Assembly: GCA_043815445.1 (NCBI GenBank)
Contig: JBDRIY010000058.1
Span: forward strand, 16,403 to 80,402
DNA length: 64,000 nt
Source: Candidatus Omnitrophota bacterium
GTDB taxonomy: Bacteria; Omnitrophota; Gorgyraeia; Duberdicusellales; 4484-171
Direction of reading: 5' to 3'
Part shown: piece by piece, positions 30,101 to 64,000 of the stretch
Layout of the letters: each line of letters begins with the position of its first letter
Position numbering within the stretch: the stretch's first letter is position 1
Program-made: the position numbers and the translations under genes
Notes under the pieces: generated by a model
Seen by the model: the letters and a program-made list of their open reading frames with translations, nothing else
Databases searched by the model: none
Told to the model about the DNA's origin: nothing

Positions 30101-30101
30101 C

Positions 30102-30130: not shown

Positions 30131-30190
30131 TGAGTTGATGAATCTTGTTAGAAATATAATTTTTAACAGGGCAAAAAGGAGGCGTTTAAT

Positions 30191-30833: not shown

Positions 30834-30859
30834 TTCTCTTTTTTAATAAGTTCAAGTTT

Positions 30860-43669: not shown

Positions 43670-43795
43670 TTGAAAAACAACATTGATATTGACATTATAA
43701 TTGAAAAATGGTATGTTTATGATAGCTAAGGAGGCAGACGCAGGAAATTGAGAGATGCTTTCTTTAGATGAATACGTATTGGAAGGAGATAACGA

Positions 43796-44029: not shown

Positions 44030-44032
44030 TTT

Positions 44033-44407
44033 ATGCGTTATCTTATAGATACGAATATTATTATCGACCACTTGCGTGGAGATAAAAGTGTTACTTCCTT
44101 TTTGGAAAAGATAGAGAATAAAAAATCTCAAGCGAGTATATCTGTTATCACTGAATACGAACTTCTTATTTATCCTCCGCTTACTTCCCAGCAAGAAAAA
44201 GAAATTATTTCTTTTATAAATATTTTTGCTGTCCTTAATATTACCTCTTCCATTGTTAGAATCGCTGTTCGTTTTAGAAAAAAGTATAATACTGATATAA
44301 TAGATTCCCTTATCGCCGCTACAGCTCATAAAAATAAATCCATCCTTATCACCCGCAATATTAAACATTTTAAGAATATCAAAGAAATCCAAATTGAAAC
44401 CATTTAG
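44033..44407 (+). CDS. vapC: VapC-type PIN-domain toxin.
   Basis: MRYLIDTNIIIDHLRGDKS...IIDSLIAATAHKNKSILITRNIKHF has the classic VapC PIN acidic residues (D6, E, D, D). It ends with TAG at 44405-44407. Confidence 0.75.
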   Translation: MRYLIDTNIIIDHLRGDKSVTSFLEKIENKKSQASISVITEYELLIYPPLTSQQEKEIISFINIFAVLNITSSIVRIAVRFRKKYNTDIIDSLIAATAHKNKSILITRNIKHFKNIKEIQIETI

Positions 44408-44439
44408 TAAAATTCCGAATAATTGAGAGATGCTCTCTT

Positions 44440-47400
44440 GAGTTGACTCTTTACCAAATTCTTCCTTACTAAAATTAGACGAGGTATTATGATCTATCTT
44501 GAGGTTATTTAGAAAAGATTGAGGGGGGATGTCAAAACCATAATTATTATAAAAATTAAAACAAATAACTAAAACAATTATCCCGAAAGCAGCCAGCCAA
44601 GCTACCCGGCCAAACGATAATGCTGACACTCCCGGCTCCGCCAACCCCGTCTCCCCCCAAGCTAAACCAGAAAACCCAAAAACGCCGATAATACTTGCTA
44701 ACAAGGTGAGTTTTACAATAAGTTTAAGTTTATGCAGAATAGAAGAGTTTTTATGATGGGTATAAAAGAAAAGGAAAAGAACTAAACTTAAAACAACCAG
44801 CGGCGGGGCAAGGATTTGATATGAGCTTACAATGGGAAATTTTGGCAAAAATTGAAAATTTGGTAATGAAGTAACTAATCCTATAGGGGTAATTAAAGCA
44901 AGGTTTTTGTTTACAGAAGAGCTGGATATTTTGTTATTAATCTTTTGAGATGAAAGCTCTGTTAACTTGTAAAGCTCTTCCTGCTGGACGCTATTTAGAT
45001 TCTCTGAATATAAAGCTATCAACTTATTCGACCAGCGACCTTTATAAAGCGCTATGCATAATTTAAGTAAATTTCCTTCCGGGGGATAGTTAGGAAAAAT
45101 CTTTTTGCCTGGAAATGTTTTTACCCGAAGATATTTAATGTCTTTCAAAGGAACTAAACTGCTATAATTATACCAATCGCGGCCTTGGTCGTATTTTGAA
45201 TATTCTATAACCTCTCCTTCCCTTTTTAACCTCTTAAATATTACCAGATAGCCAGGTATAGCTAATCTAATAGGTTTATTTATTTGAATTACTTTCTTAT
45301 GGTCAAATACTCTCGTGTAATAAGCTAAGATCGCTGTGCCTATGCCCTTTCGACTGCAATCAATATCACCTTCATTTAGATGCATTCTAGTAATTTCTAT
45401 AGAAGAACCCACAATTCCAGAAGTAACATACCCCACATATAAAGGATGTACACCATAAAAAATCTTATGACGATTATAGTTCTTGTTTTGTATCGTAATT
45501 TTATTGCCATATTCCATATTAAGCGTGCCGTTTGAATGATATTCTTCACGATTTATAATGTGTGCCTTATCCCAAGGGTTTTTAGGCAAAGCAGGGGTAA
45601 ATAAAACACTCTTCCATAGTTTCTCCTTAATAGCCGCTTCTATCTCAAATGCATAATCTATATCCGGACAACTCTTAACAGCCTTTAAAGTACTTAGGCA
45701 TTCATCTCTTAATTTTCCTAAAGTTTCTATCAAACCGGAAATATCTTTCTTTACACACTGCCCGATAAACATCACATCCCGCCCATCATTAGTGACAGTT
45801 ATTTTAGAAAGGCTAACATCGACAGGTATATAACCGTCATTGGACTGCCAAGTATTAATTAGTTCCTCAGCAGTCATCCTCACCAGTCTTTTCCTTTCTG
45901 CCTTAATTTGTTCTGGAGTCTGGCTGGCTGGCCAAGTATGAAACTGTTCTTCTAGGGTCAGTCCCGTTAACGCCTGTGGTTGCCTCTCTGTTACTCCCCC
46001 TCTACTAATATTTAAAACAGAAAAAACCAATTTTCCGCATAAAATATCTAATATCTTCTTTTTTATTTTGTTATTAGTCGCAGTATCTTCATTTAAGCTA
46101 TGCGCATATTCTTCCTCTATTACGTCTAAAAAATTACTGTAGTATTTCCCAAAAGCCCAAAGCCCTCCAACAACACCGCTAAGTTTGAAGCGGGAAGAAA
46201 AACTGGAAGGATTGGTAGAAAGGTGTTTAACGAAGAAAAATACGAAAAACAAAAACAATATAAACCCTATAACAAGAGGCGGAGCAAGGGTTTGATACCA
46301 ACTCACAACAGGAAATTTTGGTAAAAATTGAAGGGTTGGGAATAAGAAAGATAATTCTCTATAATTATCACCAATCAAAGCTTTCGAGTCCACTTTAGCG
46401 GCAGTTTCTTTAATTCGAGTTTTCATTTCTAAAAGCACGGAACGGGTAAGATTAAAAAAGAGGCTTTGAGCTAAATGTTGAACAGAGACAGCAGAATTTA
46501 TTATTAAAGAATATGCTTGAACATATTCGGTATTTATCTCGGCAGGAACGCGATAATTAGAATCGGCCAGCGAAGACTGGACAAAATCATAAACCTCTTT
46601 CAGGTAATCAGGCGAAACTTTGAATAGTTGACCCAGATTATAAATATCAAGTTTAGGAATATAACTACCATCAGCCTGTTTATTTACATAATCCTGATAC
46701 TGTACTGCCGCAATCAACCCATTTATCTCATAACCAAGAGCAAGGTACATTAAAAAATCAGCATAAAATTTTGCTTGTTGCTTTATTCCTCTTACCAACG
46801 TGCTATCCGCGCTTATTAATACGGATGCTTGTTCAAGGCTTAAAGCTCGCTGCTTTAATCCTTTTATTATCGCGATATCCACAGCCCTTGCCTCGGCTTC
46901 GCTGAATCCCATTGCATGTCTAAACTCATGCGCCGCGTACATAATAATATCTGCTGCTGTCGCGATGTTTGCCGCGTATAAAGTGTTTCCTTCAAATCTA
47001 AACGCCGGGGAAAGAGCAGCATTTCCTCTAAGCATCAAACTAACATAAGGAACTACCTCAATATTTATATCCCTACCCACAGCTTTACTAAATACCCCTT
47101 TTATAAAGCCTAAAGTACTACCCTTGCCTCTAGCTACTTCGCCTAATGTTCTCTGAAACGAAAATCCAATATTATCTATACGTAAACTCAAGCTGTTATA
47201 AAATTCTCTGGCGCTAGGTGAATCAAGGCCCATACTAACCAGCTCGTTATTTAAAAAATCGCGGAAAATACTATCTGCTTGTTCTAATTGCTCTTGAGGA
47301 ACTCGGCCTTTAACGATAATCTTTATACTTATGCCTGACGGTAATTCTCCATCCCTGAAAAAACCTAATGACCTAATAGAACTTACCCACCTCAACCAAA

Positions 47401-50400
47401 TATTATCTGTAGTCAAGTTAAATTCTTCATCCGCTATCTTTAAAGCAACAAAAATTTCAGCTCCATACTTGAGCTGATTACCTAAAAAAATCATCTTTTC
47501 TAACGGCCTTTTATGAACTATGTAGCGTGTTGTAACTGTTTCTTCATAAACGTTTTCCTTTTCCACTATCCTTTTTTTATCAACCCACTCATTATGCGCT
47601 TCTGCCAATGCCTGAAGCTGACAGCGGAATTCTTCGGAAATTCTCTGCTCTGCTTTGATCTCAAAAAGATTTATCTTTTTCACTTCCCTTGTTGATAATA
47701 AATCACGCATAATAATATTACTTTCTGGGTGGAAAAAATAACCAAAAGGACTAGAAGAATGTTTAAGCAACAGGAGGAATTTGATAAGGAAAATGATTGA
47801 AACAAATATAACAAACAGCACAACCAAGCCAGTCCCTGCGCGGATAGGATTGGCAAAAAAGATAAACTGTAAAAACCGGTTATGCTTATTCCCTTCATCT
47901 TCTTTAACAAACATATATTTATCTTCTACCCGCCAGGATTTATAAGCTATTTTATTCTTACGGATAAGGCTAAGAAAAACATCAACGATCTCCCCATCAA
48001 ACTGTTTTCCGCTTTTATCTTCTAAAACAGAAATTGCTTTCCTCTCCGACAATCCTTGTTTATAAACCCTTTCTGAAGTAAGCGCGTCAAATACATCCGC
48101 GACAGCTAAAATCCGCGCGACTAACGGAATATTCTCGCCTTTTAACCCTGAAGAATACCCTTCGCCGTCATATGATTCATGATGGTACTCAGCGCCATTA
48201 TACAATATCTTTAAAAATTCATCTTTACCCTCAATATCCCCTCCGTTAATAACCGAAAAAATAACTTCAAGGCTTTTCCTGTCCATTTCTAATAATTCTA
48301 CCCCATACTCCGTATGTCTTTTCATGATAATAAATTCTACCTCAATTAAACAACCCAATTTCATAATAATCTTCTTGGTAATACGAAGCTTTCCAATATC
48401 ATGCAGCCATCCCGCCATCTCGATTGCTTTTATCTGCCCATAGGGCAAGCCCGAAGCAACAGCAATATTTCGGCTATAATAGGCAACTCGTTCGGAATGC
48501 CGCTTAGTATAAATATCCATACTTTTCAAATATCCCGACAATACCTCCAGCGCCTCTTGATACCTTTCTTTTAAATCTCCTTCCAGAAAGCTTAGATGGT
48601 TAAAAAAACACTCTTTCATCCCATAAATTTTAATTTCCTCACTAAGACTTTTCACTTTACACTTCAACTCCCTTAGATTTTTCAACTGATAACCCGTATC
48701 AATAAACACTGGCGTTGACCTTACCGGCGCGGCCTTAAGAAACACAAAATGATGTTCTTTAGGCAAAAGCATTCTTTTACGGATTTTTTCATCGGCGTAA
48801 ATACAAATAGAGTTATCATTCTTCTTTTTATCAGCCAAATATAATTTTATCCGTTCACTAAACGGCACAAAACCAAATTCCATAAGCATTTTTATAAATA
48901 CGGGGTGGTAAACTACAGCTGTATCTCTAAACTTAAACTGCCTCAAAAACCGGGAATCTTTTATAGTCAATAAAAACGCGGCGAATAAATATTCAGACAA
49001 CCCCTTTCCCTGATAATCATCAAATACTTCAAATGTATTAAGCTTTAATTCTTTGCCGGACAAACAAATTTCAACTTCTAACGCCATCTGCCTGTTTTTC
49101 ATATCCATAAATTCCAATAAATATAACTCACAATAAGGCAATGAAAAGACCGGTCTTAATGAAAACTTAAATTTATAACCTAAAAATTCAACTTTTCCCC
49201 GTAAAGACAAAATGCCTTTATGATTAGTTTTGAAAATACTGGCTAACCGAAAGGCTATTTTATGCCGTAAGCAGTTTAACCAGGAATAACTATTTTTCAG
49301 CAGACAAGAAGAAAAACTGGAAAGATTGGAAGAATGTTTACGAGAAAGAAGGAATTTGATAAGGAGAACGATTAAAATAAATAACACAAACGCCCCCGTC
49401 CCCGCGCGGATAGGATGGCCGACGAAGCCGAAATAGAGAATTTTTTGCAGAGAAAAGTTGGTGTTAGATAAGCTGGGGAAGAATAGAATAGCAGTTAAGC
49501 TATTCTTAGAATTCACTATATTATCCCGCAATCCTGAAGTTTTATCTATCTTACGAAATAATACGCCATCAATACGAAGTCTACACTGTACGTCTTGTTT
49601 AGTTTCTACCCCCGCGCAAATGTTAACGATATCCGGGATTAAGTTCCAGATTGAAATAATATCCTCACTATGTTCTCTTTCTTTATCCGCAAGTTCCTCT
49701 CTCAAAACAGCAATATTTCCTTTCTTTTTATTGAAAATATCTAATATTTCATTCTTATCTTTGTCTAAAATGCTTAAAAGACAGCCTCGACAAAGTTCAG
49801 AATTTTCAAAATCAATGGGAAATCTACTAAGAATGTGATCTTTAAGGTAAGATTTGCTAATCCCCATGCTGATCGCGACTTGTTCACGATTATCTTTAAG
49901 CAAGTAATAGCGTTTTATGATCTCAATAATAATTCTCTCCTTGATATCAAAATAAATAATTATATCTACTATATTTTTTCTTTTTGCGTAGGGCAAATAG
50001 GCCTTAAGCAGCTTCTTTAAATTACCTAAGTTAAACCCCTGATATGAATGTTCCCAGATATCCAATGCCTTGAATTTAACGACTTTCTGAAAATAATCTT
50101 CTGTGAGCGCGCCGAATTTCTTTTTCTCATCAGCTTTATTTTCTATTTCCTTAATAACAATACCTAAATCCTCAGAAATCCCAAGTATCCTTTCTGACCG
50201 CTCAATACAGAACCATTTACAAACAGCTTCAAGCTCTCTATTATAAAACTGAAGTACTTCGTGAAATATCTGGTTAAACTGCTTTGCGAAACCTAACGCT
50301 TTTATTTTTCCTCCGTCTGAAAAGTTTTCAAGCGCCGGGATTTCTTTTGTATAAAACTCTAATAAACCAGGTAAATCCAATGTTGCATCTATTGCCAAAA

Positions 50401-53400
50401 CAACCTTTCCATCTTTATAAAACTTCTCCATTATCAAAGAAATCTCAGCAAGCAGCCCTTTAAGCCATTCTCCTCTGCGCACTGTAAGATGCCATCTTAC
50501 AATAGGCCTTTTTTTCACTTTATTATCTAATCCGTTTAAAATTAAAAACGCGTTATTAAAATCATGCTGTTTCATAAACTCTTGTGCTTCTATCATTGCT
50601 TCACATATCGCAATCTCTTTTTTTATAGCAAGATCGAGTTCTTCCTGATGAAATTCGTCTAAAATATCTTTTGCCTTATAAAACGCGCCTATTCTAATAT
50701 ATTCTTCCGCGTTCGCTTGTTTTTCTTCTCTTTTTTCTACTTCTTTATCATCTCCATACCACTCTCCCCAGGGATATAAAACCAACATCAAACCCGCCGG
50801 AATCAACAAAACCTTGGTAATCGAAATTTCTCCCCCTACTCCCAAACAAAACAAAACCAACCCCAACACCGCGACAGCCCCTGCTTCTTCTTTATACCTC
50901 CCTACCTTGCTCAATTTATCTTTATCTAAATATCTCATAACAAAAAATATAATTACCCCTAATAGCACCATACCCGAAACTGCGATAAAAAAACCTATGC
51001 CATTAATAATTTTCTTATCAGGATATGGCTGAATATTATTGTTGGGCATTTTGCCTAAATAACCAAGCTTAGCAACGCATATATTATGTATGAAATATAT
51101 CTCATCCTGTACCTGACTGCCGCCAATCTCAATAAGCCTATTTTTTACTATAGTAATATCTTTACTACACTTTAAATAGTCCTTATTTAAACCTTGTTTT
51201 TTCGCTCTCACTAACCTCTCACTGCGAACAAGAAAAGCCAGGGTAAAATAAAATACTCTATATTCTTTAGCCCTATCTTCTTCCCGCGTTTTTTCTTGCG
51301 GGCTAAAAAGAATATTTTGAATAATTTCAATCATTTTTCTCTTATAAAAATCCTCCTTGATTTGTCTTTGCTTAATATCTAAACTGCTGAGAAAGCTTAA
51401 AAGAAACTGAGTATTTTTTTCATTTAAAAATATTGCTGATACTTTTTCCAAAGGCTGGTTACGCAAATTATCTATAAGATTAATCTTCTTTAAGCGTAAA
51501 ATATAGTTAATCTGTTCCGGCTCTAATAAGACGGCGCCGCCATCTTTAAACTCTAAAAAAGCATTACGCGGGTAAAGCCCAAGATAAAATCCGCTTAAGC
51601 TGCAATATTGAGCCAAACACTTTGATAAACCACACAGAAGCTGAATTCGGATAATTCTGCTTACTATAAGATTTTTACTGGTTTTCCCTAAAGTATTCTC
51701 ATTCTTCTGACATATTACCGGCTGTAATACTTCAGGCCCAAAAACTTTATCCATATCCCTATTTTGCCGCCTAAACATAAAACACATCGCCATAAACATA
51801 ACCGCGAAAATTAGTATAGAAATAACCAGAGGCGTTCTCAATAATACAGCTATATTAACAGAGTTGAGCTGAACTTCTTTGGAGCTCTTTTTTCCCGATT
51901 CCGCGCCGAGAATCAAGCCTTTTCTCACTGGAATATTAACCGTCCAATTATCTAAGCTTAAGCCTTTTAGAAAAGAAGTATCCAATTGATTTTTTATAGC
52001 ATAAATATATAATTTCAGACATATTCTTTGAAATTCGTAAGTTTCTACAGGGGCTTTTAATATTTCACATAATGGCTTAAGGCCTCGTGAAATTAAATTC
52101 TCAATGCTGTGTTGGATGAAATCCTCATCAACCACCTTAATTCTTTCTTGGGGCAAGATCTCCTGGGCAACTAACAGTGTGAACTCGGCAATCTTTTCCA
52201 TTACCTCCAAAGCTCTCGAATTTTGCTCCGAGGCCCCTTTCTTCACAACCAGAAACTCCTCAGAAATATGCTCCAGAAAATCTTGAAGAATCACAAAAAG
52301 ACACTTCCAATAATAGGATTCTAAATTAAAAAACCTTTTATGAAGTTTTATACGCATTGACTCTGCAGAAATTGAGATTGATTTTTCTGCAGAAACAAGA
52401 AACGTAAAATCACGAGCATAGTTAACCGTCTTACTATTTCTTTCCTCAATAATCTTATTTATCCGAAACAGCAAAATCTTCTTCAAATCTCTTTGAATAG
52501 GGTAAACAGAATTAACCGCTCCCATAATCTTGATAATTTTCCTTATATCAAACACCTCTTTTTCTTCTTTGGTTAGACAATCCTCGGTGAACTGAATCAG
52601 TTCTTTTTTAAACTTTTCATAATCATCTAACTCCCCGTTTTTAAGGCGTTTAGGGAGAATTTCATTAAAATAACCTTCTAAACTACTCTTCCGAGATCGC
52701 TGTCTTATCGCCATCTCAATAACTAAACGATTATAATATTCAGAAGCACAGCTAAAACCTTTTTCTCGTAACTCTCCAATATACACGCTGACCTTGATTT
52801 CTTCCTCAGCTAAAATATCTAAGAAGCTATATCTCACATCCTTTTGAGTATGCGCAGAGCTTTCCCTATCATCACCGCTTAGAATATGGCAAACATCATG
52901 AACCAGCCCTACTTGAGCGAATATCCGGCAAGCTACGGAATTGTCAAAATAATTTCTTAAAATAAATATTACGTTGTGTTCGCGGGAAGGAATTTGGATG
53001 GCGTAAGGGGAAGACTCAGGAATTGTATCTACCCCAATAACTCTAATTTCTCTTTGTTCTTTTATTTTAAACCGCGACTGAGCCTCAGCCAACAAAGCTC
53101 CATAATCACTATCAGATAAAAAGCTTAAACTCTCATCCACGGATAAGCTCACTTCCCCCTGCTTTATTTCCTTAAATTTAATACTCTCATCATTAATTAT
53201 TGCCTGCGCCCCTTGCTTCTCACCCCGCTGAAAATCCTCACCAATCTTTGTATGCCCCTGCCGCAACTCAGAAGCTTCAAAAGGAACACTAATTTGTTGA
53301 GCCTCAGCCAGCATAAACCCTCCAGTCTCAGGATTAATTTCAATCATAGGATTCTCAAAAGCCTTTATTATTTCTATAAATCTATCAAGCCATTCTACCA

Positions 53401-56400
53401 ATTGTTTAATTACCTCCAGAGAACCGCTGATATCCTCGCCTCTATCTATTTCTAACAGCATTGATTCAATATAAATAACCAAAGGATTAGTGAATTTGTC
53501 ACTAATATCAAATTTTTCTAATTTAGTAAAAGCATTTGACGATTTACTTGTGAAAGTATGCGCTTTTCTTTGAATAACTCCCAAAGTGTATTTTTTACAT
53601 ATCTTACCGCTCTCCAATAATTCAATAACTTTCAGATTTTCACAAATCGATTTCTTAACTTCTGAAGCTTGAGCTATGAAGATGTCACGCTCTTCCCTTA
53701 CTCGTTCATCCCCCTTAATATTTTCTACTATCAGATTTATGGTATCGCTATTTAAACATTGACCGTCTATTGTCTGAATAGCCCTCAACTCGGCTTTTAA
53801 ATTTATAAGGCCCTCGTCATCAAATTTTGGCTGTTCTCTTATAACTTTTAATACCATTTCCGCGGCAGAAGGCCAGGCCTGAGAATCAATAACCCTAACC
53901 ATATCTAAAGCTGGTTCAATACGCAAATTGCAGATTTTATTACACGGTGTGCTGTCCGCTAAAGGCTTCCAACTATAAGGCCCGCGATTAGCGCTAAACT
54001 CAATTCCTGACGAACAATGACTCAATGTTTTTTTCCATATTATCCTTACTCTTTTAGTCCTAAGATCATCAATGATAATATATTTTATCCCCATCTTTAA
54101 AGCTATCCGGCATAAATATTTTATAATTTCCGCTCCTATGCCTTGATTAGTATCCCCATCGCTACGATTATTTAAAAATAACCTTTTAACGATAAGGCTA
54201 TCGTCCTTGATTAAAATAGTTAACGGCAAAATTCTCGATTCTTTAGAATTTAATGCACGCTCTTCGTAATATACGTTATAAGAAATCTTATTTTCTTCTC
54301 TGGCATTTCTATATCCATACCCCAATCTTATTATCTTGCCATAACTCGCTTTTTTCCTACCATTCGAATCCTTTTGAGTGCCAACAAGCAACACAGATTC
54401 ACCCAGCTTCTTAGGTAACGGCAGAGTCATATTCTGAGGCTGATTCATATCCTGAGGAATTAAAGCCTTAATTTTCTCCAACGTTTCATCTGACAATCCA
54501 TAGCAATCTTCGCCTCTGACCATACTCTTATCAAGTTTGCTCACCTCACTCTCATTCATTATTATTAATATCAACAGTAAGATAACTAAAAAGAGGCTGA
54601 GCCTAAAAAGCAGTAACCCGCATAACATATTTTCTGTATTAGTTTCTTGCTCATCGCCGGCCCTCTCAATCAAAAGATTTTCGCCTTCTCTCCAATGGAA
54701 AGTGTTTTCTTGGTAATTGCAGATGGTGTATTCGCTAACTCCTTTAGCTCTTAATACTGCTTCCCATACTCCTGAACCTTTGGATGTTTGTTTTAGCCGG
54801 CGCATACAAATTTTTACCCAATTGCCGGCAGAATCTGTTATTCCCGCTAAAACAAAACCCGGCTGTTCTTGCTGTATAAGCACCGGACAATTTCTATCAA
54901 TTTTTTTGCCGGACTGCCAAGACACAGGTTTACCAGCCAGATACTCAATACCCATAACCTGACGAATTTTATCTTCTAAAGCCTTTTTAAGCTTCCGGCG
55001 CTGTTTAGCTATCTTTTCTTTATTATTTTCCATAACCTCAGCATAATAATTTAAATATCGCGCGGTTGCCCAAGGGCCGATTAACAGCGTAAAAATAAAA
55101 GGGTTTTTTAAAAAATTGGGCGGATTAATTAACAGTGTTTGCTTACGCGCTTTTCTAATCTCTTCCGGTAATCTCTTTATTCCCACATTAATTACTACCC
55201 CTAAAGGCTGCTGCAATGCACAATCATCTTTTTCCGCCCGGTTAAAATCAGCAATAAATATAAAATTCTCCAAAGGCAAGCCAAGCCATTCAGCCAGCAT
55301 TTTCATAGCCTCGCCTTTATTCTTAGCCTGAATAGGCAGTTTCCAATAATCATTATCGAGCTTAACCCACAGCTCATTGCCAATAGCCACAATAAGAAAA
55401 AAGGGAGAAAAACTATCCTCTAACTGGAATATCCTCTGACAGCAAAGGTCTAAATTAGCTCCAGTATTAATACCGCTGATTGCTCCAGCCTTTTCAATCC
55501 TGGCCAGGATTTCTTTAATTTCCTTAGGTATCGCATCATCAAAAACAAGCGTATTATGAATATCAACAAATAATATTAAAGGCTTATTCCCTTTATCACT
55601 AATTTTATTAAGCTTATGCTGAAATTCATTCTTGAATTGCTCTAAAACAATATCTTTAAAATATATATGGATATCCCTGCCTATCCACCCCCCGCCTTCA
55701 CCAAAAAAGCAAATGGTAGCTATCTCAGTTTCAGCAACATCAATAATAACCTCCCATTCTCCCTCTTTAACCTTTTTAAACAATTTCATCCACATAAAGT
55801 TAAGGTTCCAGCCGCCTTCGCCATTCTTAAATGAGGCCATTATAAAACCCGGTTTAGAGAATTTTAGGCGAAGCGGAGTTGTGCCTTCTACTCCAATAAA
55901 AACATCTTCCTGTTTCGATGTATTTTGGATTATTTCCTCCTCAAATATCCAGGCTTTTGGCTTACCCTTAAGGTAATTTACCTTGCCGCAGCTATGGTGT
56001 TCTATCTTTTCAATAAGCTTTTTCTGCAAGTTAGTAAACATACTATTTGATTTTAATTTTATCTCATCAGCATAAAGAGTTACCGCCTCCAGCAATATAG
56101 TTAGGTATTTTTCAATAATTTCTTCATCAGTTAACTGAGAGTTTTGCCGGTGCAGTTTAATAATTAAGGTTTCCGGAAACATAAAATCTTCTAATTCTGT
56201 CTCTAATAATTCAGCCAAAACTTTGATGCTATTGCCTTTATCACCCGCTCCTTCCGGAGATTGCCAGTAAGTATTACCTAATTTCACCCATATTTCCCTT
56301 CCTGAACTAACATTAAGAAATGAAATAGGAAACTCATTATTTATTCCGGCTAATACCTTTTGTCCGCAAGCGCCAATATCTTCAGAGCTGGTTACAGCAA

Positions 56401-59400
56401 TAAGCACGCCTGCTTTGCTTAATTCCTTAAGTAGTGCTTGAATGGTTGGCGATACTGTTTCCGGAATATCAAGACAAACTACAGGAACCCTTCCTTTATC
56501 CGCGATTTCCTTTATTTTCGGCCTAAGCTTATCCCGATAAACATAAAAATGACTGCCTAACTTATCCCAATGCCCACCGCTTCGCCACCAGCCTCGGTAA
56601 TAACACAAATACAAATTAAACACATTAATCTCCGGGTCCAATAATTCCGCTTCCCATACTCCGGGCTTAACTTCTTTAAAAGGAACAAGATAAATCCTAT
56701 TCTTATCCCACTCCCCATTCTCATCCTCAACCCCAGCATAAGCAAATATCGGATACCTGCCGGGATATTTTGCTTCTAAAGCCTTTTGGGTAACCTGAAT
56801 ACACAGGCACTGCCCTATCTTAGCTGTAAAAAATTCACTATCTCTATGCTCAACGTAGCACCAATCAAACAATTCTCCTTTTACCGGAGCCGAAACTTCT
56901 TCACGCTTGCATCTTAACTTTTGAATCGTTTTCCGCTGAGACTTTCCATTATGGCTAAGAATAATTTCTAAGGTTTTCTTTAAAAACTCTTCCCCTTTCC
57001 ACGGCCTAAAACAAGGATAGTCAGATAACAAAATAACAAGTTCAGCTGTATCCTCCGAGCTAAGCCCTAAGAAACCAGCTAACTCTTCATCCATCTCATC
57101 CTGGCTATTTGACTTTAAAAGTATTTCTTGATACCCCTGTATTTTTTCATCCCATATCCACAAGGCCCTTCCATTATTCGTAATAAAAAATAAAATATGG
57201 ATCTCATTGTTAGTAAATTGAGAAATAAAATTCGCTGATTCTTCAAGATTTTCACAATTTATTTTTATTCCGAATAATGGTAAATTGGATTTATCGATTT
57301 TCTTAGATAAACCTCCTATAAAATTATCGTAATTAATTTTATTAAAATACTCCTTTTCAATCACTAATATAGGAACGCGCCCTTGTTTTAAAAACTTTTT
57401 AAATTCTGACTTATATTTTCCCAAATTTTTTTGCTGTTCTTCTAAATACTCCTGTTCTCCTTGGATAATAAAAACACGGGCATCGTAAGGATCCAGTTCA
57501 ACATAAATTCCTTTTTCTTTAATATCACACCCCTTCCATTCATAATTTCCATTATAAAAAATATCTTTTAAATGATATGTTTGATTGGGGTCTAATTGCC
57601 CGTTAGGATAAATTCTTCCCGACTGTGTTTTCTCGGACATATTGATTATTATTAAGGCTCGGCCTTCTTTGCCATATCTTGTAAATGCTAAAAGACTGGG
57701 GTTTTCCGGGTTAAGAACGAATAATCTTCCTAATCGCAGCGCCGGGTATGAAGCTATCTTCATTATTTTCAAATACAAATCTTCTTTTTCAACGTCCGCT
57801 GTTTCACCTTCAGCAAATACTTGCTGAATAGCAATCTTATTCTTATACCCTTTTGCCTGAAGGTCATATATAAAAGGTATCCCCGCGATTGTTGCTATAA
57901 GCACAGCCGCGGCTTTCTCAAAATCTCCCAACCAGCAAGCGGGATTTTCATCGTGGTTCTGAAGATAATGAATAAGTTTATTTAATACTTCCGGGGGGGT
58001 TCCAATGAGATAATTTTTAATTGCCGCCGCATCTTCTTCTCCCTTTTTAAACTTAGCTAAAAGGTCGAGAAGGCGTTTCTGATAAACAAATACACGGGGA
58101 TGCAATAAAGGAAGATAATGTTCTACGCTATCGCCATAGGCCTCCTTTAATAAAATCATATCCGGGTACTCCCTTAAAACATCGGAAACCACATCACTCC
58201 AAAAATCCTCTTCTACCGGCCATAGCTTATCAAATTCTTCCCAGGGCATCTGAGGATACCAGTTTTTCTTAAACTCCATCCGGGTTACCAAGTTTGACAT
58301 ATCACATCTTAAATTAATATTTCTTTGAGCCCAAAATCTTATGGTTTGTTTCATATAATATCGGGTATATTCTTTCGTATAATTTAACTGAACCGTGTCT
58401 GTCCACCCGTCAAAATAAGGGTCTCGGCCATGAGCCATTAAAATTCTGCTCTTTTTATCACCTGGAGTTCTATAGAATACAAAATAATGGTGTAAAGGGT
58501 ATCTTCCGCCCTTTTCTTTATTCTCATACCAAGGGTTATATTTATCTAAAAGTTCTTTATCGCTAAGATTCAAATCTTCAGAATTAAGAAATTTATGTAT
58601 AATACAATCCCAGTGTTGGATAATCCAAGGGTCATCAATCCCCATATGGTTAGAAGTAAAATCTATAAAAAATCTCACACCTTGACTCTTATATTTTTTT
58701 GCAAGATTCTCTAACTCCTTGTTTTTCCCCCAGTCAAGATTAATCCCCCTTAAATAGCAAGGAGCGAACGGACTGCCCTGATAATCCTTTTCTCCTTTCC
58801 ATTCCTGACGGATAAACATCCGTTTTTCACCGGTTTTTTCATCCCTTACTGTATAAAAAGGCGTATTTTCATCTTCTTTACTTCGCTGGCCCCGGCTCAT
58901 TATATAAGCAGTATTTCCAATAGGCAGAAGCCCTGTTAAATAGATATTTTTAGAATACTTTCTAATAATGCCGGGTAATTCTTTTTTAAGATATGAAATG
59001 CCGCCTAATTTGAATTTACCGTTGATTTTTTGCGTGCCCAACACCCGGGCGTTAATCTGAAAAATAGGGCTTCTGATAAATTCATTTCTCACTTCCTTGG
59101 AGAGTTTTGTGGGAAGGAATAGTTCTAAAACATATCTTTCTACCATATTCTTAACATATAAAACCTTTGATTCTTTATATATTTTATGACGAAGGTTTAT
59201 CCAGCGCTTATCTCCGTTATTTATCCAATTATAATATAAATTCGATATCACCTTCAAAGCGTTATATAATCCTATCTGATTGTTGCCTTCAATAAAAAAT
59301 CCGTTACCAAAACCTGTTTCCGGATTATACTGGCGCAAATATTCTAAAGGCCCGCCGTCTTTTGAAGCCACAATCACATTTGCATTCTCAAAAGCCCGCA

Positions 59401-62400
59401 TTCCGCTGGTTCCACAAGCCTCCTCGGGAGGCCGCGGCATCTCCAGCCAGCTATCAGCTCCCGCGGCAACTTTTTTCATCAACTCTACGTCATTACCGGA
59501 TATAAATACAAACCTTCCTTTAAAAGCGGGATTCCGCATCCAACTAATAAATTCCTTTATCCAAAAGCATAATTCCTCATTAAAAGGATCTGTAGTTATT
59601 CCTCCGATAACAATAGTCATTTCTAATCCTTCTATTTCTACATCTTTACCATCAACCTTTACCCAATTCTTAACACCCTTATCCTGACATAATGCCCAAA
59701 CAATATCTTTTAACATAGGATATTGCTGTTTATAATTAGCTATTCTTCTAACAGCGACAGCTATATGCCTATTTATACCTAAATCAAGGTGAAGATCATT
59801 ATCAGGATCCAAGCCTGTATCTTCCTTGATCCTTCTTTTAATTAACTCAATCATTTCCTGTTTGTCGTTCTGATGAACATCCCAAAGTTTTTCCGGAGTT
59901 ATCTTCCCTTTCCTTCTTTCCAAAGCAACCAAAATATCGCTTTTCCAGAATTCACCGCTTCCATTCATTATTCCGTGAATCTTTCCGGCAAATTCAGGAA
60001 ACATCCTCTTAAGAACCTGAGCGTGTTTTTTGCTTACGCCGTTAACAATATCCGCCAAAGCCATAGCTGCCCGGGAAAAATCCAAATCTTCTCCTCTTAC
60101 AAAAATATCTTTATATTTTTCTAACAGCCCCAGGCGCCCAAACCAGTGGCCTTTACCATGGTATATTTGAAGGCCGGCAGTAACAGGAGTATGATTAGTA
60201 AAAGAATAAGTAACGCCTTTAAAATAAGAGTCATCTCTCATTGTGGGCATAGCTATGACTGTATGGGCCTCATTCAAGCGTAAAATTGATGGTTTAATGC
60301 CGAACTTTTTCAATATTTCAGGCACAGCTTTACCAATTAAAACCTGCTGGGTTAATCTTTGGGCTTGGTCATCAGTATAAAGAATATCGTTTATCTCCTG
60401 ACAGGCTAACAAAAATGCCGGCGTTCCTCCCCGGCTGGTTACATATACAGCAATATGAAAATCTCTAAATTGCCCTTTACTTTGATCAAAAAGGCTTACT
60501 GTAATTTTAATTTCCTTTCCATTTTCATCAGTTACAACTTTTATAGGAAACCGCTTATTGATTTCCAATTCCGGATATTTTAATTTCTTATTATTAATTA
60601 AAGTATGATAATCAACTTTATTTTCAAAATCAATAAGCTCTCTATATTCTACAAACACCCTCTTAAGCCATTGCGATTTTTCTCCTATATTAGTTTTAGG
60701 CTCAAGCCGTTTCTCATACATCGGCATAATAATAAAAGCTTTAACCCCTGCTTTAGCGTAGCCCTCACCAGTATCACCTTCTAAAATACCTAACCCGCCT
60801 TTAGCGCTTTGATTAGCATATTTCAATAATTCTACTAACAGCGCCTCCATAGAAACATCTATTATCGGCCCGCCTAACTTCTCTAACTTCCTCAACCAAG
60901 CCTTCTTGCTGATTTTCGGCGTCAGATACCCTGGCTGTTTATCTTCTACTTCTGTTTCCGTAAAAAAGGAAAATAGGACATAGAAGATGAGTATTAACAA
61001 TGCTATATTTAAAGAACCTGGTATCACCACGCATAAAAGAGAATCTTGAACTCCTGTTGAAAGGCCATTACCTTTAACTATCTTATACCCTGATCCAATA
61101 CCGGAAGCCTGCCAAAGATAAGTATGTTCTAAGGACTCAATAATATTCATCTCAATAGAATCTTCCTTCTTGTCCATGTTCTGGCTAACATAACTAAACC
61201 CGTTAAAGTTAAGAACTTGATACTTCTGTTCTACCTTTGATTTAAAGCAAATAGCCCTGCTGTTCGGAGTCCGGCGCGTAAAATTACTTTTAGAATTCGC
61301 GGTAAACTGAAGGATTAATTTATTCTCATCAGCGGATGATAAGTGCTGGTCAAAATCAGCATGAAAAATGCCCGGGACAGCGGCATCTTGCCGAGCGAAA
61401 ATCACGTCACTAAAATCATTGTTCTTAAACCCTTCCCGAACCCTTTTATTGATTTCTTCAACAATTTTATACAAGAAATTAGTGTCTATGTTTTTAAGCT
61501 CTAACTCATCAAATGAAATATTAGCCAAATTCTCTAAAATAAAAGGCAGTATCCCTCCATTCACAACAATTCTATCGCCTAATACACAAGCAGCAACCAG
61601 CCGTCTTTCAAGAACATCATCTTTTATCCCCATGGCTAAATTTAAATATCGCGAATAATTCTCTGGTTCAACCACTGACCTATACAATTCAAGCTTATGA
61701 TCTCCCAAAAGCGTAATAACCTTTCCTCCTGCTTCCTCTACTGCTATCCGCAAAGTTTTTAGGTAAAAATATAATTCTTCCTCCTCTATACATTCACCCA
61801 TAAAAATAAGTTCCCCGTCTTCCCCTGTCCAAACATCGCTCTGCCAAGTATCACCCTTATCTATATACTTCAGCTCCGTCAAAACGCGCCTAACCTCTTT
61901 TAAGTTAAGAGCGTCGGCGCCAAAAACTGTAACCTTTCTTATATCTATAGGGTGGCAATAATGTTCAATTACCTGCTGAACAGTATTATGATTTTTTGCT
62001 AACTCAGTTTTTTCTAACGCTTTATTAACCTGATTGATTCTCTTATTTGTATACTCACTGGTGCTGCGTTTTTTCTTTATATAACAATCCTGTTCTGAAT
62101 CTATCTCTACATTAAAACAAAACGTCGCTAAGCCATCTAAACAAACTTTCCCCAAATCAAAAAGATGAGCACTGCCCTGGTAATTCCTTTCAAACCCTCT
62201 AATGCCGTCAGAAACTCCGTAAATAGGCGCGTTTTTATAAACACACTGCTTATTTAATTTAAATGTTACTTTAGTGTGAGAAACAGCATCCTCAATAACA
62301 ATGCTATCTATCTCTCCAACAGTTAAAGAATCCAAATCTTGAGGCATAGAATAAACCCTGCCATTAATACGTACCTTTATAAAATCGCCAATATGAGTAA

Positions 62401-64000
62401 GCATAAGAATGTTCGCCAAAACACAATTAAAATCTAACTGGCCGTTAGTAAGATTAGTAAAAGAAAACTTACACTTCATTTTCCCATTTTCTAAAAATCT
62501 TAACTGCTTACAAACCATTAATCTATCTTCCATAGTAGAATAACGCGCTTCATATCCACCATTTTTAGAAAAGGCTAATTCTCCGCGTAATTCCAATTCC
62601 TCCATATCAAAATTACCCTTTATAAAATCTGGCCCGGTAATATTTTTACGCGAAATAATTGGCTGGCATAAAAACGGCAGGCCGAATATCTGCCCTAAAC
62701 TTCTACCCTGCGGGGGTATATACTTTAATATATCCCGCGGATTTTTACTACCTATGGTATCAAGGTTAATCCTGGGTGAGGCCGCCGGCCGGCCGCCGGG
62801 CGCGGCTGTGCCAGATGTTTGAGGAGAAAAATCTTTCTCCTCCATATACCTAACGGCTTGCTCTACATCACTATATTTGGCATCATTATGAGGATAAAGA
62901 AACCATTCATCTATAGGAAGAAAAGATTTAGACACAGGGTTTTGACGCCCCCTATCTCCCTTAGGCTGCCAAAAAATAATGTTTCCTTGACTATTAATAA
63001 TCACCCACTGATTATTGTAAGAATCCGTAACAAACCTGCCGCTAAATCTATAGGGGCCGGAAATTTCTTCTCTATTACTAATTTCAATTCCAGCTTCTTC
63101 CATAAGATGCAAGACAGTGCTGAAGGAACTAAATACATAATCGCGAAAATGAGGAAACATCAGCCCCCCGAATTTACCGTGGAAAAGATGGCAGGAGCAT
63201 AACCCGCTAATCAACGTAACCTCGGCAATCCGCGCTAATTCACTATCAGATTCCTTTAATCTTTCAGTTACAAACCGCGAAAAACCAAGCACAAAATCAA
63301 GAAAAACATACTTCTTAACCTGGCCAACATATCCTCTTTCTACCAGATTTAGATATAAAAATCTTTCATCCTTAGTAAGACTTTTCCACCCTTTAGCCTC
63401 TATTTTTCGGGTCAAAATCTCAAACTGTTCCCTTTCTTCAGGAGTAAGCGACCACCAGGAAAATTCAGCGTAAGACCCGCCGGAAACAGTACGTAACCGG
63501 ATTGGTTTAATATCTTTGAGAAATCCGCTGATTAATTCAGTTTGGATAACGGCGGCTTTGTTCTTAGGGTCAACCGCCTTGGCAAAATTATCCATCCATC
63601 CGCCAGGCTTATAACAATAATCATAGTTATCCCCCCAATCTTTACTACCGGCTTTACTGTAGTCATCAGCATAAACAATAACCGGTATCTGTGGATTAAG
63701 GCGCGATATTATTTTATTAAATCTCTTGACTAAATTTTTGCTTCCTAAACCTTTATCCTTAGCAGACATTTTAGAAAGGATTTCCTCTGCCCTTTTTAAA
63801 TCCTTTTTATGCTTACTTTTAAACTTTTCAATTTTATCTTTAGCAAAATCCTCTAATGCCTTAACTTCAGAAAAGGGTATTATCTGCCTCAAGAAATAAG
63901 ATCCTCTTACTACCTTAAATTCCGGGCAAGCCCGCGTAGTAAACACAACATCTTCATCACGAATATCAATACCCAATTTCCAGGCTGTCCAGTCAAAAAT
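44440..64000 (-). CDS. Minus-strand coding continues to the window end as one giant phase-2 ORF or several. The recognisable domains, from 3' to 5', are a conserved module like those of 30860-43669, an HExxH metalloprotease motif, an HD-GYP phosphodiesterase domain, a GNAT acetyltransferase, a TM-linked helical region, a second GNAT plus HD-like segment, a GH13-like alpha-amylase catalytic segment, two HAD-like phosphatase segments, a GT35 alpha-glucan phosphorylase, and an N-terminal region of unknown fold. It is partial at the 5' end (off-window).
   Basis: The phase-2 codons were checked at HEFRHAMGF (46919-46945) and LHKLKL (44721-44738). Recurrent TM linkers HPIRAGTG(A/L)(F/V)VLF are at ~49400 and ~47820. 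I translated by eye and did not verify continuity across the whole span, so several same-strand genes are possible. Confidence 0.35.
46919..46945 (-). other. Zinc-metalloprotease HExxH motif (HEFRHAMGF).
   Basis: Reverse-complement translation, phase 2. Confidence 0.45.
47980..48520 (-). other. HD-GYP phosphodiesterase-like domain (HDIGK ... HHESYDGEGYSSGLKGENIPL).
   Basis: The HD motif is encoded at ~48391-48410 and the HHExxDGxGY(P) motif at ~48150-48190. This matches the c-di-GMP HD-GYP family signature. Confidence 0.5.
58630..58680 (-). other. GH13-like alpha-amylase catalytic-region motif (VRFFIDFTSNHMGIDDPW).
   Basis: Reverse-complement translation. It resembles GH13 conserved region I (xxVILDxVxNH). 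Confidence 0.35.
59300..60900 (-). other. GT35 alpha-glucan (glycogen/maltodextrin) phosphorylase-like domain with Lys replaced by Arg at the PLP site.
   Basis: GGLGILEGDTGE (~60770-60797), FTNHTPV and LNEAH motifs, and WLEMPRPPEEACGTSGMRAFENANV (59391-59450), were all verified by explicit reverse complement. Canonical GT35 has E-A-S-G-T-x-x-M-K. Confidence 0.55.

What the first reader, a model, noticed from the sequence alone, without database searches (positions are those of the whole stretch)
59391..59450. GT35 glucan phosphorylase-like domain with the PLP-binding lysine replaced by arginine
The motif EEACGTSGMRAFEN aligns with the universally conserved E-A-S-G-T-x-x-M-K of glycogen and maltodextrin phosphorylases. 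There the Lys forms the Schiff base with pyridoxal phosphate. Arginine cannot do this. The domain would therefore be a catalytically dead phosphorylase-like glucan-binding module, or it would use a different mechanism.
Basis: partly seen in the sequence, partly recalled or inferred. Interest (0 to 1): 0.55.

Follow-up and report, generated by a model that had tools for sequence, protein, structure and literature searches.

The report
Phosphorylase-like domain lacking its cofactor lysine
Inside a giant bacterial gene sits a glycogen-phosphorylase-like enzyme domain with arginine where all studied relatives have the lysine that holds vitamin B6; this is the rule in a large unstudied family that keeps its other catalytic residues, so the domain probably still works, without a covalently bound cofactor.

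Summary
On the minus strand, EEACGTSGMRAFEN (window 59384-59425) lies in a 627-residue GT-B domain. Its Arg (codon CGG, 59396-59398) aligns with the proven PLP lysine of Segatella copri GP (K609), E. coli MalP (K646), E. coli GlgP, and the yeast and rabbit enzymes.

It is not an error. All 11 close homologues have Arg, as do 110 of 152 aligned representatives from a 1.84-billion-protein library. The glucose and phosphate ligands (equivalents of rabbit H377, N484, R569, Y573, K574, E672, G675, T676) are nearly invariant, so "dead domain" is unlikely. A second position, aromatic in 25/25 Lys-type relatives, is aromatic in only 17/110 Arg-type (Asn here). No relocated conserved lysine exists.

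The family is closer to TIGR02094 "alpha-glucan family phosphorylases" than to GT5 synthases, yet fails the curated GT35 cut-offs. Databases and the Omnitrophota giant-protein papers label it "starch synthase/GT5".

In related giant proteins it sits beside phosphoglucomutase, phosphoglucose isomerase, phosphofructokinase and true GT5 synthase domains; here it sits beside GH13 and GH57-type domains.

Best reading: an active alpha-glucan/glucose-1-phosphate enzyme without Schiff-base PLP. The co-substrate is unproven.

The parts
2..64000 (-). Single uninterrupted reading frame of 21,333 codons that runs off both ends of the window; part of a giant multi-domain, multi-TM protein
   Evidence: only one stop-free segment of this size; about 40 TM-like hydrophobic segments; Pfam domains
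60962..61042 (-). Hydrophobic TM-like segment (aa 987-1013) directly in front of the domain. It occupies the place of the N-terminal signal-like peptide of stand-alone homologues
   Evidence: The A2 profile alignment begins right after it, at aa 1016. Stand-alone homologues have an N-terminal hydrophobic segment
59075..60955 (-). GT35-like GT-B domain (aa 1016-1642), Arg-type
   Evidence: hmmsearch with family profile A2, 995.8 bits, one copy in the window. TIGR02094 E 5.6e-37. AF2 model pLDDT 85.6, pTM 0.87. Best Foldseek hits 20yr/9l6i, S. copri GP
60773..60802 (-). KGGLGILEGD: the conserved GGLG loop of GT35/GT5, preceded here by a basic residue
   Evidence: GGLG is invariant in 76/76 aligned sequences. 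The residue before it is K/R in 48 of 68 Arg-type sequences
60182..60202 (-). FTNHTPV: His equivalent to rabbit H377 / S. copri H316 (glucosyl binding)
   Evidence: Aligned to H316. His in 144/144 aligned sequences. H316 role from PMC12912991
59945..59971 (-). IMNGSGEFW: Asn and Trp equivalent to rabbit N484 and W491
   Evidence: Asn in 145/146. Trp nearly invariant in A2. Rabbit numbering derived from the alignment
59729..59749 (-). RRIANYK: phosphate-binding Arg-Arg...Tyr-Lys (S. copri R507/R508/K513; rabbit K568/R569/Y573/K574)
   Evidence: Profile alignment to 9l6i. R 148, R 146, Y 141, K 147 of about 148 aligned. Residue roles from PMC12912991 and PMC11046441
59477..59503 (-). ISGNDVELM: Asn at the column that is Tyr in PLP-type enzymes (rabbit Y648, S. 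copri Y577, MalP/GlgP Tyr), and Met where they have Ala
   Evidence: Column is aromatic in 25/25 Lys-type against 17/110 Arg-type. E. coli alignments are
59384..59425 (-). EEACGTSGMRAFEN: the E-A-x-G-T-S-x-x-(K) motif, with Arg in place of the PLP lysine
59396..59398 (-). CGG codon for Arg1535, the residue in place of the Schiff-base lysine
   Evidence: column R in 110/152
57812..58747 (-). GH13 alpha-amylase-family domain (aa 1752-2063) with regions I, II and IV intact, on the same side of the membrane as the GT35-like domain
   Evidence: PF00128 E 4.6e-14. Motifs located. GH13 co-occurs in 9 of 29 multidomain Arg-type proteins
62162..63271 (-). GH57-type 4-alpha-glucanotransferase accessory domains (AmyA middle and C-terminal), upstream in the protein
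   Evidence: PF09095 E 1.4e-8; PF09094 E 1.1e-3, below its cut-off

Best explanation
The domain (aa 1016-1642 of the window's frame) is an intact member of a large, uncharacterised Arg-type sister group of the TIGR02094 alpha-glucan family phosphorylases. It has the GT-B fold and the complete set of residues that in phosphorylases hold the glucosyl unit and the phosphate. It lacks the lysine that forms the PLP Schiff base, and also a nearby aromatic residue that is constant in PLP-type relatives. It therefore cannot carry covalent PLP.

Most likely it still acts on alpha-1,4-glucan with phosphate/glucose-1-phosphate chemistry, by phosphorolysis or the reverse transfer. This would be a front-side retaining mechanism in which the substrate phosphate serves as proton shuttle, possibly helped by the Arg and by a second anion in the former cofactor-phosphate site. 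In this protein it would work together with the neighbouring GH13 and GH57-type glucan-active domains.

Shown: the substitution, its family-wide fixation, conservation of the other active-site residues, the fold, and the domain neighbourhood. Inferred: that it is catalytically active, that no PLP is used, and that Pi/G1P is the co-substrate.
For: The Arg aligns with proven PLP lysines.

The Arg is fixed in 11/11 close homologues and in 110/152 representatives.

In the Arg-type group the equivalents of H377 (99/99), R569 (104/105), Y573 (103/105), K574 (105/105), E672 (110/110), G675 (106/110) and T676 (107/110) are conserved. N484 is Asn in 145/146 of all aligned sequences.

The Tyr column is aromatic in 25/25 Lys-type but 17/110 Arg-type. 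Ala changes to Leu/Met five residues later, and DGW changes to GG. No Arg-type-specific conserved Lys exists.

The family profile matches S. copri GP at E 1.7e-35, and GT5 GlgA only at 1.5e-6. The AF2 model's best structural match is S. copri GP.

Context: within 2000 aa in related giant ORFs there is PGM in 5/11, PGI in 3/11, PFK in 1/11, and separate genuine GT5 synthase domains. GH13 occurs in 9/29 multidomain members and in this window. Canonical Lys-type phosphorylases are also found fused to PGM.

Precedent: GT4 trehalose phosphorylases are retaining GT-B phosphorylases, and the SNi-like mechanism has phosphate itself as proton donor (PMC8950772). From my own knowledge, those GT4 enzymes need no cofactor.
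Against: There is no biochemical or structural data for any member.

In classical phosphorylase the PLP 5'-phosphate is regarded as essential (PMC11046441; PMC6411801), so loss of PLP might abolish phosphorolysis.

The family scores below the curated GT35 thresholds and above the Pfam GT5 N-domain threshold.

Most members have a basic residue next to GGLG, reminiscent of GT5 K15.

UDP-glucose pyrophosphorylase domains occur in 2/11 and 1/29 relatives.

The window itself contains no PGM, PGI or PFK domain.

Confidence: 0.5

Rival explanations
1. It is a nucleotide-sugar-dependent alpha-glucan synthase-like transferase. The nucleoside diphosphate occupies the space that PLP plus phosphate occupy in phosphorylases, and the Arg contacts ribose or the alpha-phosphate. 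This would be a surviving or re-evolved 'proto-GT35' state.
For: Pfam's GT5 N-domain model PF08323 hits above threshold, while PF00343 is sub-threshold.

K/R sits directly before GGLG in 48/68 Arg-type sequences, near the position of the GT5 K-x-GGL lysine.

The Lys column corresponds to GlgA Y385, the +8 position after the catalytic Glu. From my own knowledge this is the second Glu of the EX7E motif that binds ribose in other GT-B enzymes.

GT5-like bridging sequences P0119/P0138 attach between the Lys-type and Arg-type groups.

UDPGP domains occur in some relatives.

The proto-GT35 hypothesis is stated in PMC11046441.
Against: The profile is about 30 orders of magnitude closer to phosphorylases than to GT5.

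The aromatic residue that stacks on adenine in GlgA (the same column as Y648) is lost in most Arg-type members, and is Asn here.

Genuine GT5/GT1 synthase domains coexist in the same polypeptides, which would make a second synthase redundant.

No GlgC-type domain was found with the E. coli GlgC query.

PGM, PGI and PFK neighbours fit G1P production better.
Confidence: 0.2
2. It is a non-catalytic pseudoenzyme: a glucan-binding or scaffolding module that positions alpha-glucan for the neighbouring GH13 and GH57-type domains.
For: The one residue considered indispensable for holding the cofactor in all characterised GT35 enzymes is lost.

A minority of relatives carry M, I, G, D, V, A, C or L in that column (17 of the 152 aligned sequences), so the position is not always constrained.

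The domain is embedded in a giant scaffold-like protein.
Against: Seven or more catalytic, phosphate-binding and glucose-binding positions remain 95-100% conserved across at least 110 clusters below 50% identity. That is not expected under relaxed selection on catalysis.

Arg itself is fixed rather than drifting.

Stand-alone versions of about 520-820 aa exist as single-domain proteins in several phyla.
Confidence: 0.12
3. It is a normal phosphorylase that still uses PLP, or a related phosphorylated cofactor, bound non-covalently, with the Arg stabilising it instead of a Schiff base.
For: The ligands of the cofactor phosphate (R507/R508/K513 equivalents and the helix N-terminus G-T-S) and the W491 equivalent are retained.

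From my own knowledge, the imine bond is not itself catalytic in phosphorylase, since the NaBH4-reduced enzyme is active. Pyridoxal-reconstituted enzyme is activated by free phosphate analogues (Parrish et al. 1977, cited in PMC6411801).
Against: The aromatic column that is constant in PLP-type enzymes is small and polar in most Arg-type members. An adjacent Ala becomes Leu/Met, suggesting a remodelled or filled pocket.

About half of the Arg-type proteins have export-type N-terminal hydrophobic segments, against 2/24 Lys-type.
Confidence: 0.15
4. It is a sequencing or assembly error, or a decaying pseudogene copy.
For: None found, beyond the general caution for metagenome assemblies.
Against: The reading frame is open for 21,333 codons. 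Arg is present in all homologues from independent assemblies. CGG is two substitutions from AAG.
Confidence: 0.01

Closest known systems
TIGR02094 'alpha-glucan family phosphorylases' (GT35 clade 2), e.g. Segatella copri GP, PDB 9l6i/20yr
   Same: This is the best sequence match (profile E 1.7e-35) and the best structural match (Foldseek E 1e-26 to 1e-28, TMq 0.72). It shares the GGLG loop, NHT His (H316), RR...YK (R507/R508/K513) and the E-A-x-G-T-S motif. It shares the compact architecture without the tower helix of classical GPs..
   Different: K609 becomes Arg and Y577 becomes Asn. There is no DUF3417 N-terminal domain. DGWW becomes DGGP. The domain scores below the TIGR02094 trusted cut-off (127.8 against 191.7). 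It is embedded after a TM segment in a giant protein. Stand-alone relatives carry signal-like N-termini.
Classical GT35 glycogen/maltodextrin phosphorylases (rabbit GP, E. coli GlgP/MalP; PF00343)
   Same: It has the same GT-B fold and the same active-site residues apart from the cofactor lysine.
   Different: It is only distantly similar (E about 1e-10 to 1e-17 with the profile; PF00343 20.1 bits, below GA 27). It is about 200 residues shorter, with no regulatory insertions. K680/K646 becomes Arg.
GT5 glycogen/starch synthases (E. coli GlgA, archaeal GlgA, plant SSIV; PF08323 + PF00534)
   Same: It shares the GT-B fold (SSIV TMt 0.76). The N-terminal half hits PF08323 above threshold. It shares the GGL loop with a nearby basic residue, and the catalytic Glu (E377). 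This is how NCBI and the Omnitrophota giant-protein papers label it.
   Different: glgA TIGR02095 scores 44 bits against a cut-off of 328. No PF00534 C-domain is detected. The motif is GTSGMR rather than GLTQLY. The adenine-stacking Tyr column is Asn. Real GT5 domains occur separately in the same proteins of relatives.
GT4 retaining trehalose phosphorylases (fungal)
   Same: They are a functional analogy only: a GT-B retaining phosphorylase using Pi/alpha-G1P, which from my own knowledge needs no PLP, with an SNi-like mechanism in which phosphate is the proton donor (PMC8950772).
   Different: They belong to a different CAZy family, act on a different substrate (trehalose), and showed no detectable specific sequence relationship here.
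Very long multi-domain proteins of Omnitrophota ('Archaeovorins' and related)
   Same: The ORF exceeds 21,333 codons and has many TM segments. It combines PF08323-type, radical SAM, methyltransferase and HD domains. The closest homologues come from Omnitrophota MAGs.
   Different: Those papers record the module only as 'GT5/starch synthase'. The terms phosphorylase, PLP and GT35 do not appear for it. The organism of this window is not known directly.

Membership tests
GT35 alpha-glucan phosphorylase (PF00343 / TIGR02094 / TIGR02093) | Scores above the curated family thresholds | tested here: not met
   TIGR02094 scores 127.8 bits against cut-off 191.7, although E is 5.6e-37 over profile positions 65-598 of 600. 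PF00343 scores 20.1 against GA 27. TIGR02093 scores 11.3 against 552.9
GT35 alpha-glucan phosphorylase (PF00343 / TIGR02094 / TIGR02093) | Lysine forming the Schiff base with pyridoxal 5'-phosphate (rabbit K680, MalP K646, ScGP K609) | tested here: not met
   Arg1535 occupies the column. No alternative family-specific conserved Lys exists
GT35 alpha-glucan phosphorylase (PF00343 / TIGR02094 / TIGR02093) | Phosphate-binding basic residues (rabbit K568/R569/K574; ScGP R507/R508/K513) | tested here: met
   RRIANYK aligns to R507/R508/K513. The column is invariant in the family
GT35 alpha-glucan phosphorylase (PF00343 / TIGR02094 / TIGR02093) | Glucosyl-binding residues (H377, N484, E672, G675, T676 equivalents) and the GGLG loop | tested here: met
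   All are present in the window and 95-100% conserved in the family
GT35 alpha-glucan phosphorylase (PF00343 / TIGR02094 / TIGR02093) | GT-B two-Rossmann fold closest to phosphorylases | tested here: met
   AF2 model pLDDT 85.6, pTM 0.87. Top Foldseek hits are 20yr/9l6i, then classical GPs
GT35 alpha-glucan phosphorylase (PF00343 / TIGR02094 / TIGR02093) | Pi-dependent phosphorolysis of alpha-1,4-glucan yielding alpha-G1P | not testable with these tools
   Only contextual support is available: PGM, PGI and PFK domains beside the module in relatives
GT5 glycogen/starch synthase | N-terminal PF08323 domain plus C-terminal PF00534 domain; TIGR02095 above cut-off | tested here: not met
   PF08323 scores 43.2 bits, above its cut-off of 22.7. 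No PF00534 is detected. TIGR02095 scores 44.3 against 328
GT5 glycogen/starch synthase | K-x-G-G-L lysine and the aromatic residue stacking on adenine (E. coli K15, Y355) | tested here: inconclusive
   A Lys directly precedes GGLG, shifted by one residue relative to K-T-GGL. The Y355 column is Asn
GT5 glycogen/starch synthase | Use of ADP-glucose or UDP-glucose as donor | not testable with these tools
No GlgC-type domain was found nearby, and UDPGP occurs in a minority of relatives
Very long proteins of Omnitrophota | Reading frame of tens of thousands of codons with many TM segments and mixed enzymatic modules | tested here: met
   21,333 codons with no stop, open at both ends. About 40 TM-like segments. 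Pfam content matches the published 'sugar metabolism' and 'regulatory' modules
Very long proteins of Omnitrophota | Encoded in an Omnitrophota genome | tested here: inconclusive
   The closest homologues are mostly from Omnitrophota MAGs (P0001 at 56% identity; the genome locus L006 is also Omnitrophota, while L005 and L007 are labelled 'uncultured bacterium' and 'uncultured Planctomycetia'). The window's own source is unknown

The most novel reading that the evidence does not exclude
The Arg-type proteins are not degenerate phosphorylases. They are a separate, ancient lineage lying between GT5 nucleotide-sugar synthases and PLP-dependent GT35 phosphorylases. They would be living representatives of the cofactor-free or nucleotide-using 'proto-GT35' state postulated in the literature, performing glucan phosphorolysis or synthesis without vitamin B6. 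This lineage would be enriched in reduced-genome and uncultured phyla (Omnitrophota, CPR, Elusimicrobia) and built into giant membrane-anchored glycogen-to-glycolysis assembly lines.
Probability: 0.2. Interest if true: 0.85.

Novelty: new variant of a known kind. Interest (0 to 1): 0.64.

Why it matters
According to the review read here (PMC8950772), every characterised GT35 enzyme is an alpha-1,4-glucan phosphorylase. Textbook accounts treat covalently bound PLP as indispensable to them.

Here a large natural clade has replaced the PLP lysine and a co-varying pocket residue, yet holds every other active-site residue under strong constraint. It comprises at least 110 clusters at 50% identity from several uncultured phyla.

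If active, these proteins would show how the phosphorylase active site works without vitamin B6. They would also give a direct experimental handle on the long-standing question of how PLP dependence arose from nucleotide-sugar GT-B enzymes.

Practically, the finding corrects an annotation. The domain reported as the commonest 'GT5/starch synthase' module of the Omnitrophota giant proteins is phosphorylase-like. With the PGM, PGI and PFK modules next to it in relatives, that suggests these giant proteins contain glycogen-to-glycolysis assembly lines.

Tried and rejected
Sequencing error or pseudogene: rejected because Arg is family-wide, the frame is open, and CGG is two changes from AAG.

Relocated PLP lysine: I searched for columns with a residue at least 85% conserved in the Arg-type and below 30% in the Lys-type. 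No lysine was among them.

Gene neighbourhood of stand-alone homologues P0004 and P0009: no glycogen genes nearby, so uninformative.

Further copies of the domain in the window: none.

Link between loss of Lys and export: an N-terminal hydrophobic segment occurs in 44/90 Arg-type against 2/24 Lys-type. However, many short Arg-type proteins lack it, and the PGM/PGI/PFK neighbours are cytoplasmic enzymes, so I did not adopt this as a general explanation.

Rooting the family with GT5 outgroups by bootstrapped neighbour-joining: the crown Lys-type clade has 98% support and the Arg-type sequences lie outside it. Arg-type monophyly has only 41% support and the basal order is unresolved, so the direction of change (ancestral or derived) stays open. 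Classical GPs were not included.

Literature searches for a PLP-independent GT35, or for the role of Tyr648, found nothing usable in the held library.

Inspection of the cofactor pocket in the AF2 model was not possible, because coordinates are not exposed by the tools.

Full report
1. What is at the coordinates

The plus-strand ORF lists show nothing long near 59.4 kb. A six-frame scan shows that the entire window, 2..64000 on the minus strand, is one stop-free frame of 21,333 codons that runs off both ends. In that frame EEACGTSGMRAFEN is aa 1526-1539 (window 59384-59425). The Arg is aa 1535, codon CGG at 59396-59398. The strand is minus.

2. Is it the PLP-lysine position?

phmmer against PDB sequences gives 'alpha-glucan family phosphorylase' 9l6i (Segatella copri GP) as the best hit. 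In an ungapped stretch, the query's ...EEACGTSGMR aligns with ...LEASGTSGEK609. The paper on that structure states that Lys609 carries PLP, and that H316, R507, R508 and K513 contact substrate or product (PMC12912991).

The same alignments put the Arg on the Lys of yeast EASGTSNMK and rabbit EASGTGNMK. With the family profile, the Arg falls on E. coli MalP K646 and GlgP K662. K646 is named as the PLP lysine in PMC11046441. In E. coli GlgA (GT5) the same column is Y385, eight residues after the catalytic E377.

3. Not an error: a family trait

A search of 5.8 billion proteins with the domain returned 11 homologues at 32-56% identity, mostly from Omnitrophota MAGs, and one canonical phosphorylase. 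All 11 have Arg in the column. Only the canonical protein, which has DUF3417 plus PF00343, has Lys.

A profile of the Arg-type sequences was searched against 1.84 billion cluster representatives. It found 4,436 proteins at E<=1e-3 and 400 at E<=1e-30. Among the best 150 plus earlier hits, aligned to the profile, the column is:
- R in 110
- K in 25
- M in 5
- D, G, V, I and A in 2 each
- C and L in 1 each

Members come from Omnitrophota, Elusimicrobia, Sumerlaeota, Planctomycetota-labelled MAGs and CPR phyla (Falkowbacteria, Paceibacterota), all uncultured. They are annotated inconsistently as 'glycogen/starch synthase', 'glucan/starch phosphorylase' or hypothetical.

4. What is kept and what is lost

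Kept in the window and nearly invariant in the Arg-type group:
- the GGLG loop
- the NHT histidine (H377/H316 equivalent, 99/99)
- the NG asparagine (N484 equivalent; Asn in 145/146 of all aligned sequences)
- the following Trp (W491 equivalent)
- RR...YK (R569 104/105, Y573 103/105, K574 105/105)
- E-A-x-G-T-S (E672 110/110, G675 106/110, T676 107/110)

Lost together with the lysine:
- The column that is Tyr in rabbit (Y648), E. coli MalP/GlgP and S. copri (Y577) is aromatic in 25/25 Lys-type sequences. It is aromatic in only 17/110 Arg-type sequences (S 45, T 19, N 12, G 7). It is Asn in the window.
- An Ala five residues later becomes Leu/Met in 98% of Arg-type sequences.
- DGW becomes GG.

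That the Tyr lines the cofactor pocket is my recollection of GP structures. I could not verify it in the held literature.

No lysine is conserved specifically in the Arg-type group, so the cofactor lysine has not simply moved.

5. Which family?

NCBIfam:
- TIGR02094 (alpha-glucan family phosphorylase): E 5.6e-37 over nearly the whole model, but 127.8 bits against a cut-off of 191.7
- glgA TIGR02095: 44 bits against 328

Pfam:
- the N-terminal half matches PF08323 (GT5 starch synthase catalytic domain) above threshold
- PF00343 is sub-threshold at 20.1 against 27

Lys-type neighbours score 1e-22 to 1e-39 on PF00343.

The family profile hits S. copri GP at 1.7e-35, GlgP/MalP at 1e-15 to 1e-17, and GT5 GlgA only at 1.5e-6.

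An AlphaFold2 model (pLDDT 85.6, pTM 0.87) is most similar to S. copri GP (E 4.5e-28, TMq 0.72), followed by classical phosphorylases and GT5 synthases.

So the domain is phosphorylase-like, from a divergent sister group of TIGR02094. It sits close enough to the GT5/GT35 boundary that automated annotation calls it a starch synthase. The two preprints on Omnitrophota giant proteins record exactly this module as 'GT family 5 / starch synthase (PF08323)', one of their most frequent domains. They do not mention phosphorylase or PLP.

6. Evolutionary placement (tentative)

I built neighbour-joining trees on an L-INS-i alignment of 83 sequences with GT5 outgroups.
- The crown Lys-type clade has 98% bootstrap support, and the Arg-type sequences lie outside it.
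- Sequences such as P0119/P0138 (EPCGTGYMM) match both GlgA and the Arg-type profile, and attach near the root.
- Arg-type monophyly (41%) and the basal order are unresolved.
- One Omnitrophota protein, P0030, nested among Arg-type sequences has Lys plus Phe.

The data do not decide whether Arg is a secondary loss or whether the lineage never had the lysine. The latter would fit the published idea that PLP replaced a nucleoside monophosphate in a proto-GT35 enzyme (PMC11046441).

7. Context

In the window the domain follows a TM-like segment (aa 987-1013). That segment occupies the place of the signal-like N-terminus of stand-alone homologues. The domain lies in the same inter-TM stretch as a GH13 domain with intact regions I, II and IV (aa 1752-2063). 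GH57-type 4-alpha-glucanotransferase accessory domains lie upstream.

GH13 is also the commonest partner in 29 multidomain Arg-type proteins (9/29); GDE_C occurs in 2.

In GTDB genomes the module is usually inside ORFs that span the whole fetched locus. Within about 2,000 residues of it, 11 such ORFs contain:
- phosphoglucomutase in 5
- full-length phosphoglucose isomerase in 3 (E 1e-210 to 1e-225 against E. coli Pgi for the two full-length copies, L018 and L035; the third, in L022, is cut off by the end of the locus, E 2e-86)
- phosphofructokinase in 1
- UDP-glucose pyrophosphorylase in 2
- separate genuine GT5/GT1 synthase domains in several

Canonical Lys-type phosphorylases fused to PGM also exist (P0125, P0147). 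The chain from glucan through G1P, G6P and F6P to FBP is what a phosphorylase feeds. A separate true synthase in the same polypeptide argues that the Arg-type module is not itself the synthase. This is inference from co-occurrence. The window itself has no PGM, PGI or PFK.

8. Mechanism

Shown:
- no Schiff-base lysine
- a co-varying change in a second pocket column
- full conservation of glucosyl and phosphate ligands
- GT-B phosphorylase-like fold
- glucan-related and G1P-related neighbours

Inferred: the domain is an active alpha-1,4-glucan enzyme using Pi/G1P without covalent PLP.

Chemical plausibility rests on three points:
- Retaining GT-B phosphorylases of family GT4 exist.
- The SNi-like mechanism has phosphate itself as the proton donor (PMC8950772).
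- Classic experiments showed that a free anion can replace the cofactor phosphate in pyridoxal-reconstituted phosphorylase (Parrish et al. 1977, cited in PMC6411801; the details are from my own knowledge).

The Arg and the extra basic residue next to GGLG would suit binding an additional anionic group. That group could be a second phosphate, or the alpha-phosphate of a nucleotide sugar, which is why the synthase rival cannot be excluded.

9. Verdict

The 'dead module' interpretation is unlikely, and the 'different mechanism' interpretation is favoured. The finding is a new variant of a known kind. It has real interest for the enzymology and evolution of GT35, and for reading the Omnitrophota giant proteins, but it lacks any biochemical test so far.

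Noticed in passing
window 2-64000, minus strand: The whole 64 kb window is one stop-free reading frame of 21,333 codons, open at both ends, at 37% GC. It has about 40 TM-like hydrophobic segments separating enzymatic modules: a giant gene of the kind described for Omnitrophota.
   Followed up: partly
window about 30890-46285 (aa 5905, 6397, 8308, 11019): There are repeated transmembrane modules with the near-identical context '...LAPP(L/V)V...LFLFFYT(R/H)H'. LAPP occurs 3 times against 0.12 expected. Stand-alone Arg-type homologues show a conserved L-R-P / L-A-P motif right after their N-terminal hydrophobic segment. This may be a sorting or processing signal.
   Followed up: no
L018 aa 605-1170, L035 aa 638-1203, L022 aa 3014-3242 (translated locus ORFs): Phosphoglucose isomerase is embedded inside giant ORFs next to the Arg-type module: full-length in L018 and L035 (E 1e-210 to 1e-225 against E. 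coli Pgi), and cut off by the end of the locus in L022 (E 2e-86). PGM is present in L020, L023 and L029, and PFK in L018. These look like glycolytic entry enzymes fused into one polypeptide.
   Followed up: partly
P0030 (Omnitrophota, 916 aa): This member is nested within the Arg-type clade but has Lys at the cofactor column and Phe at the aromatic column (EACGTSNMK). It is either a reversion or a retained ancestral state.
   Followed up: no
P0119, P0138 (about 400-510 aa): These sequences, with motif EPCGTGYMM, match E. coli GlgA over nearly its full length (E about 1e-20) and also the Arg-type profile (E about 1e-45 to 1e-53). They bridge GT5 and the GT35-like family and attach near the root of the tree.
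   Followed up: partly
window 57812-58747 (aa 1752-2063): The GH13 domain has conserved regions I (DFTSNH), II (RCD) and IV (NHD), so it is probably active. Weak NCBIfam similarity to MalA, cyclomaltodextrinase and TreS types leaves its specificity unknown.
   Followed up: partly
window 62162-63271 (aa 244-613): These are middle and C-terminal domains of the GH57-type alpha-amylase/4-alpha-glucanotransferase. The catalytic GH57 domain, if present, would lie beyond the window's end.
   Followed up: no
window 47987-48532; 41078-41446; 33398-33880; 20771-21244; 4451-4966: The same reading frame contains further Pfam domains: HD phosphohydrolase, two radical SAM domains, an M24 metallopeptidase and a SAM methyltransferase. 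Most of the 21,333 residues have no Pfam match.
   Followed up: no
P0125, P0147: These are canonical Lys-type phosphorylases fused to an N-terminal phosphomannomutase/phosphoglucomutase. They show that PGM-phosphorylase fusion also occurs in the PLP-type lineage.
   Followed up: no
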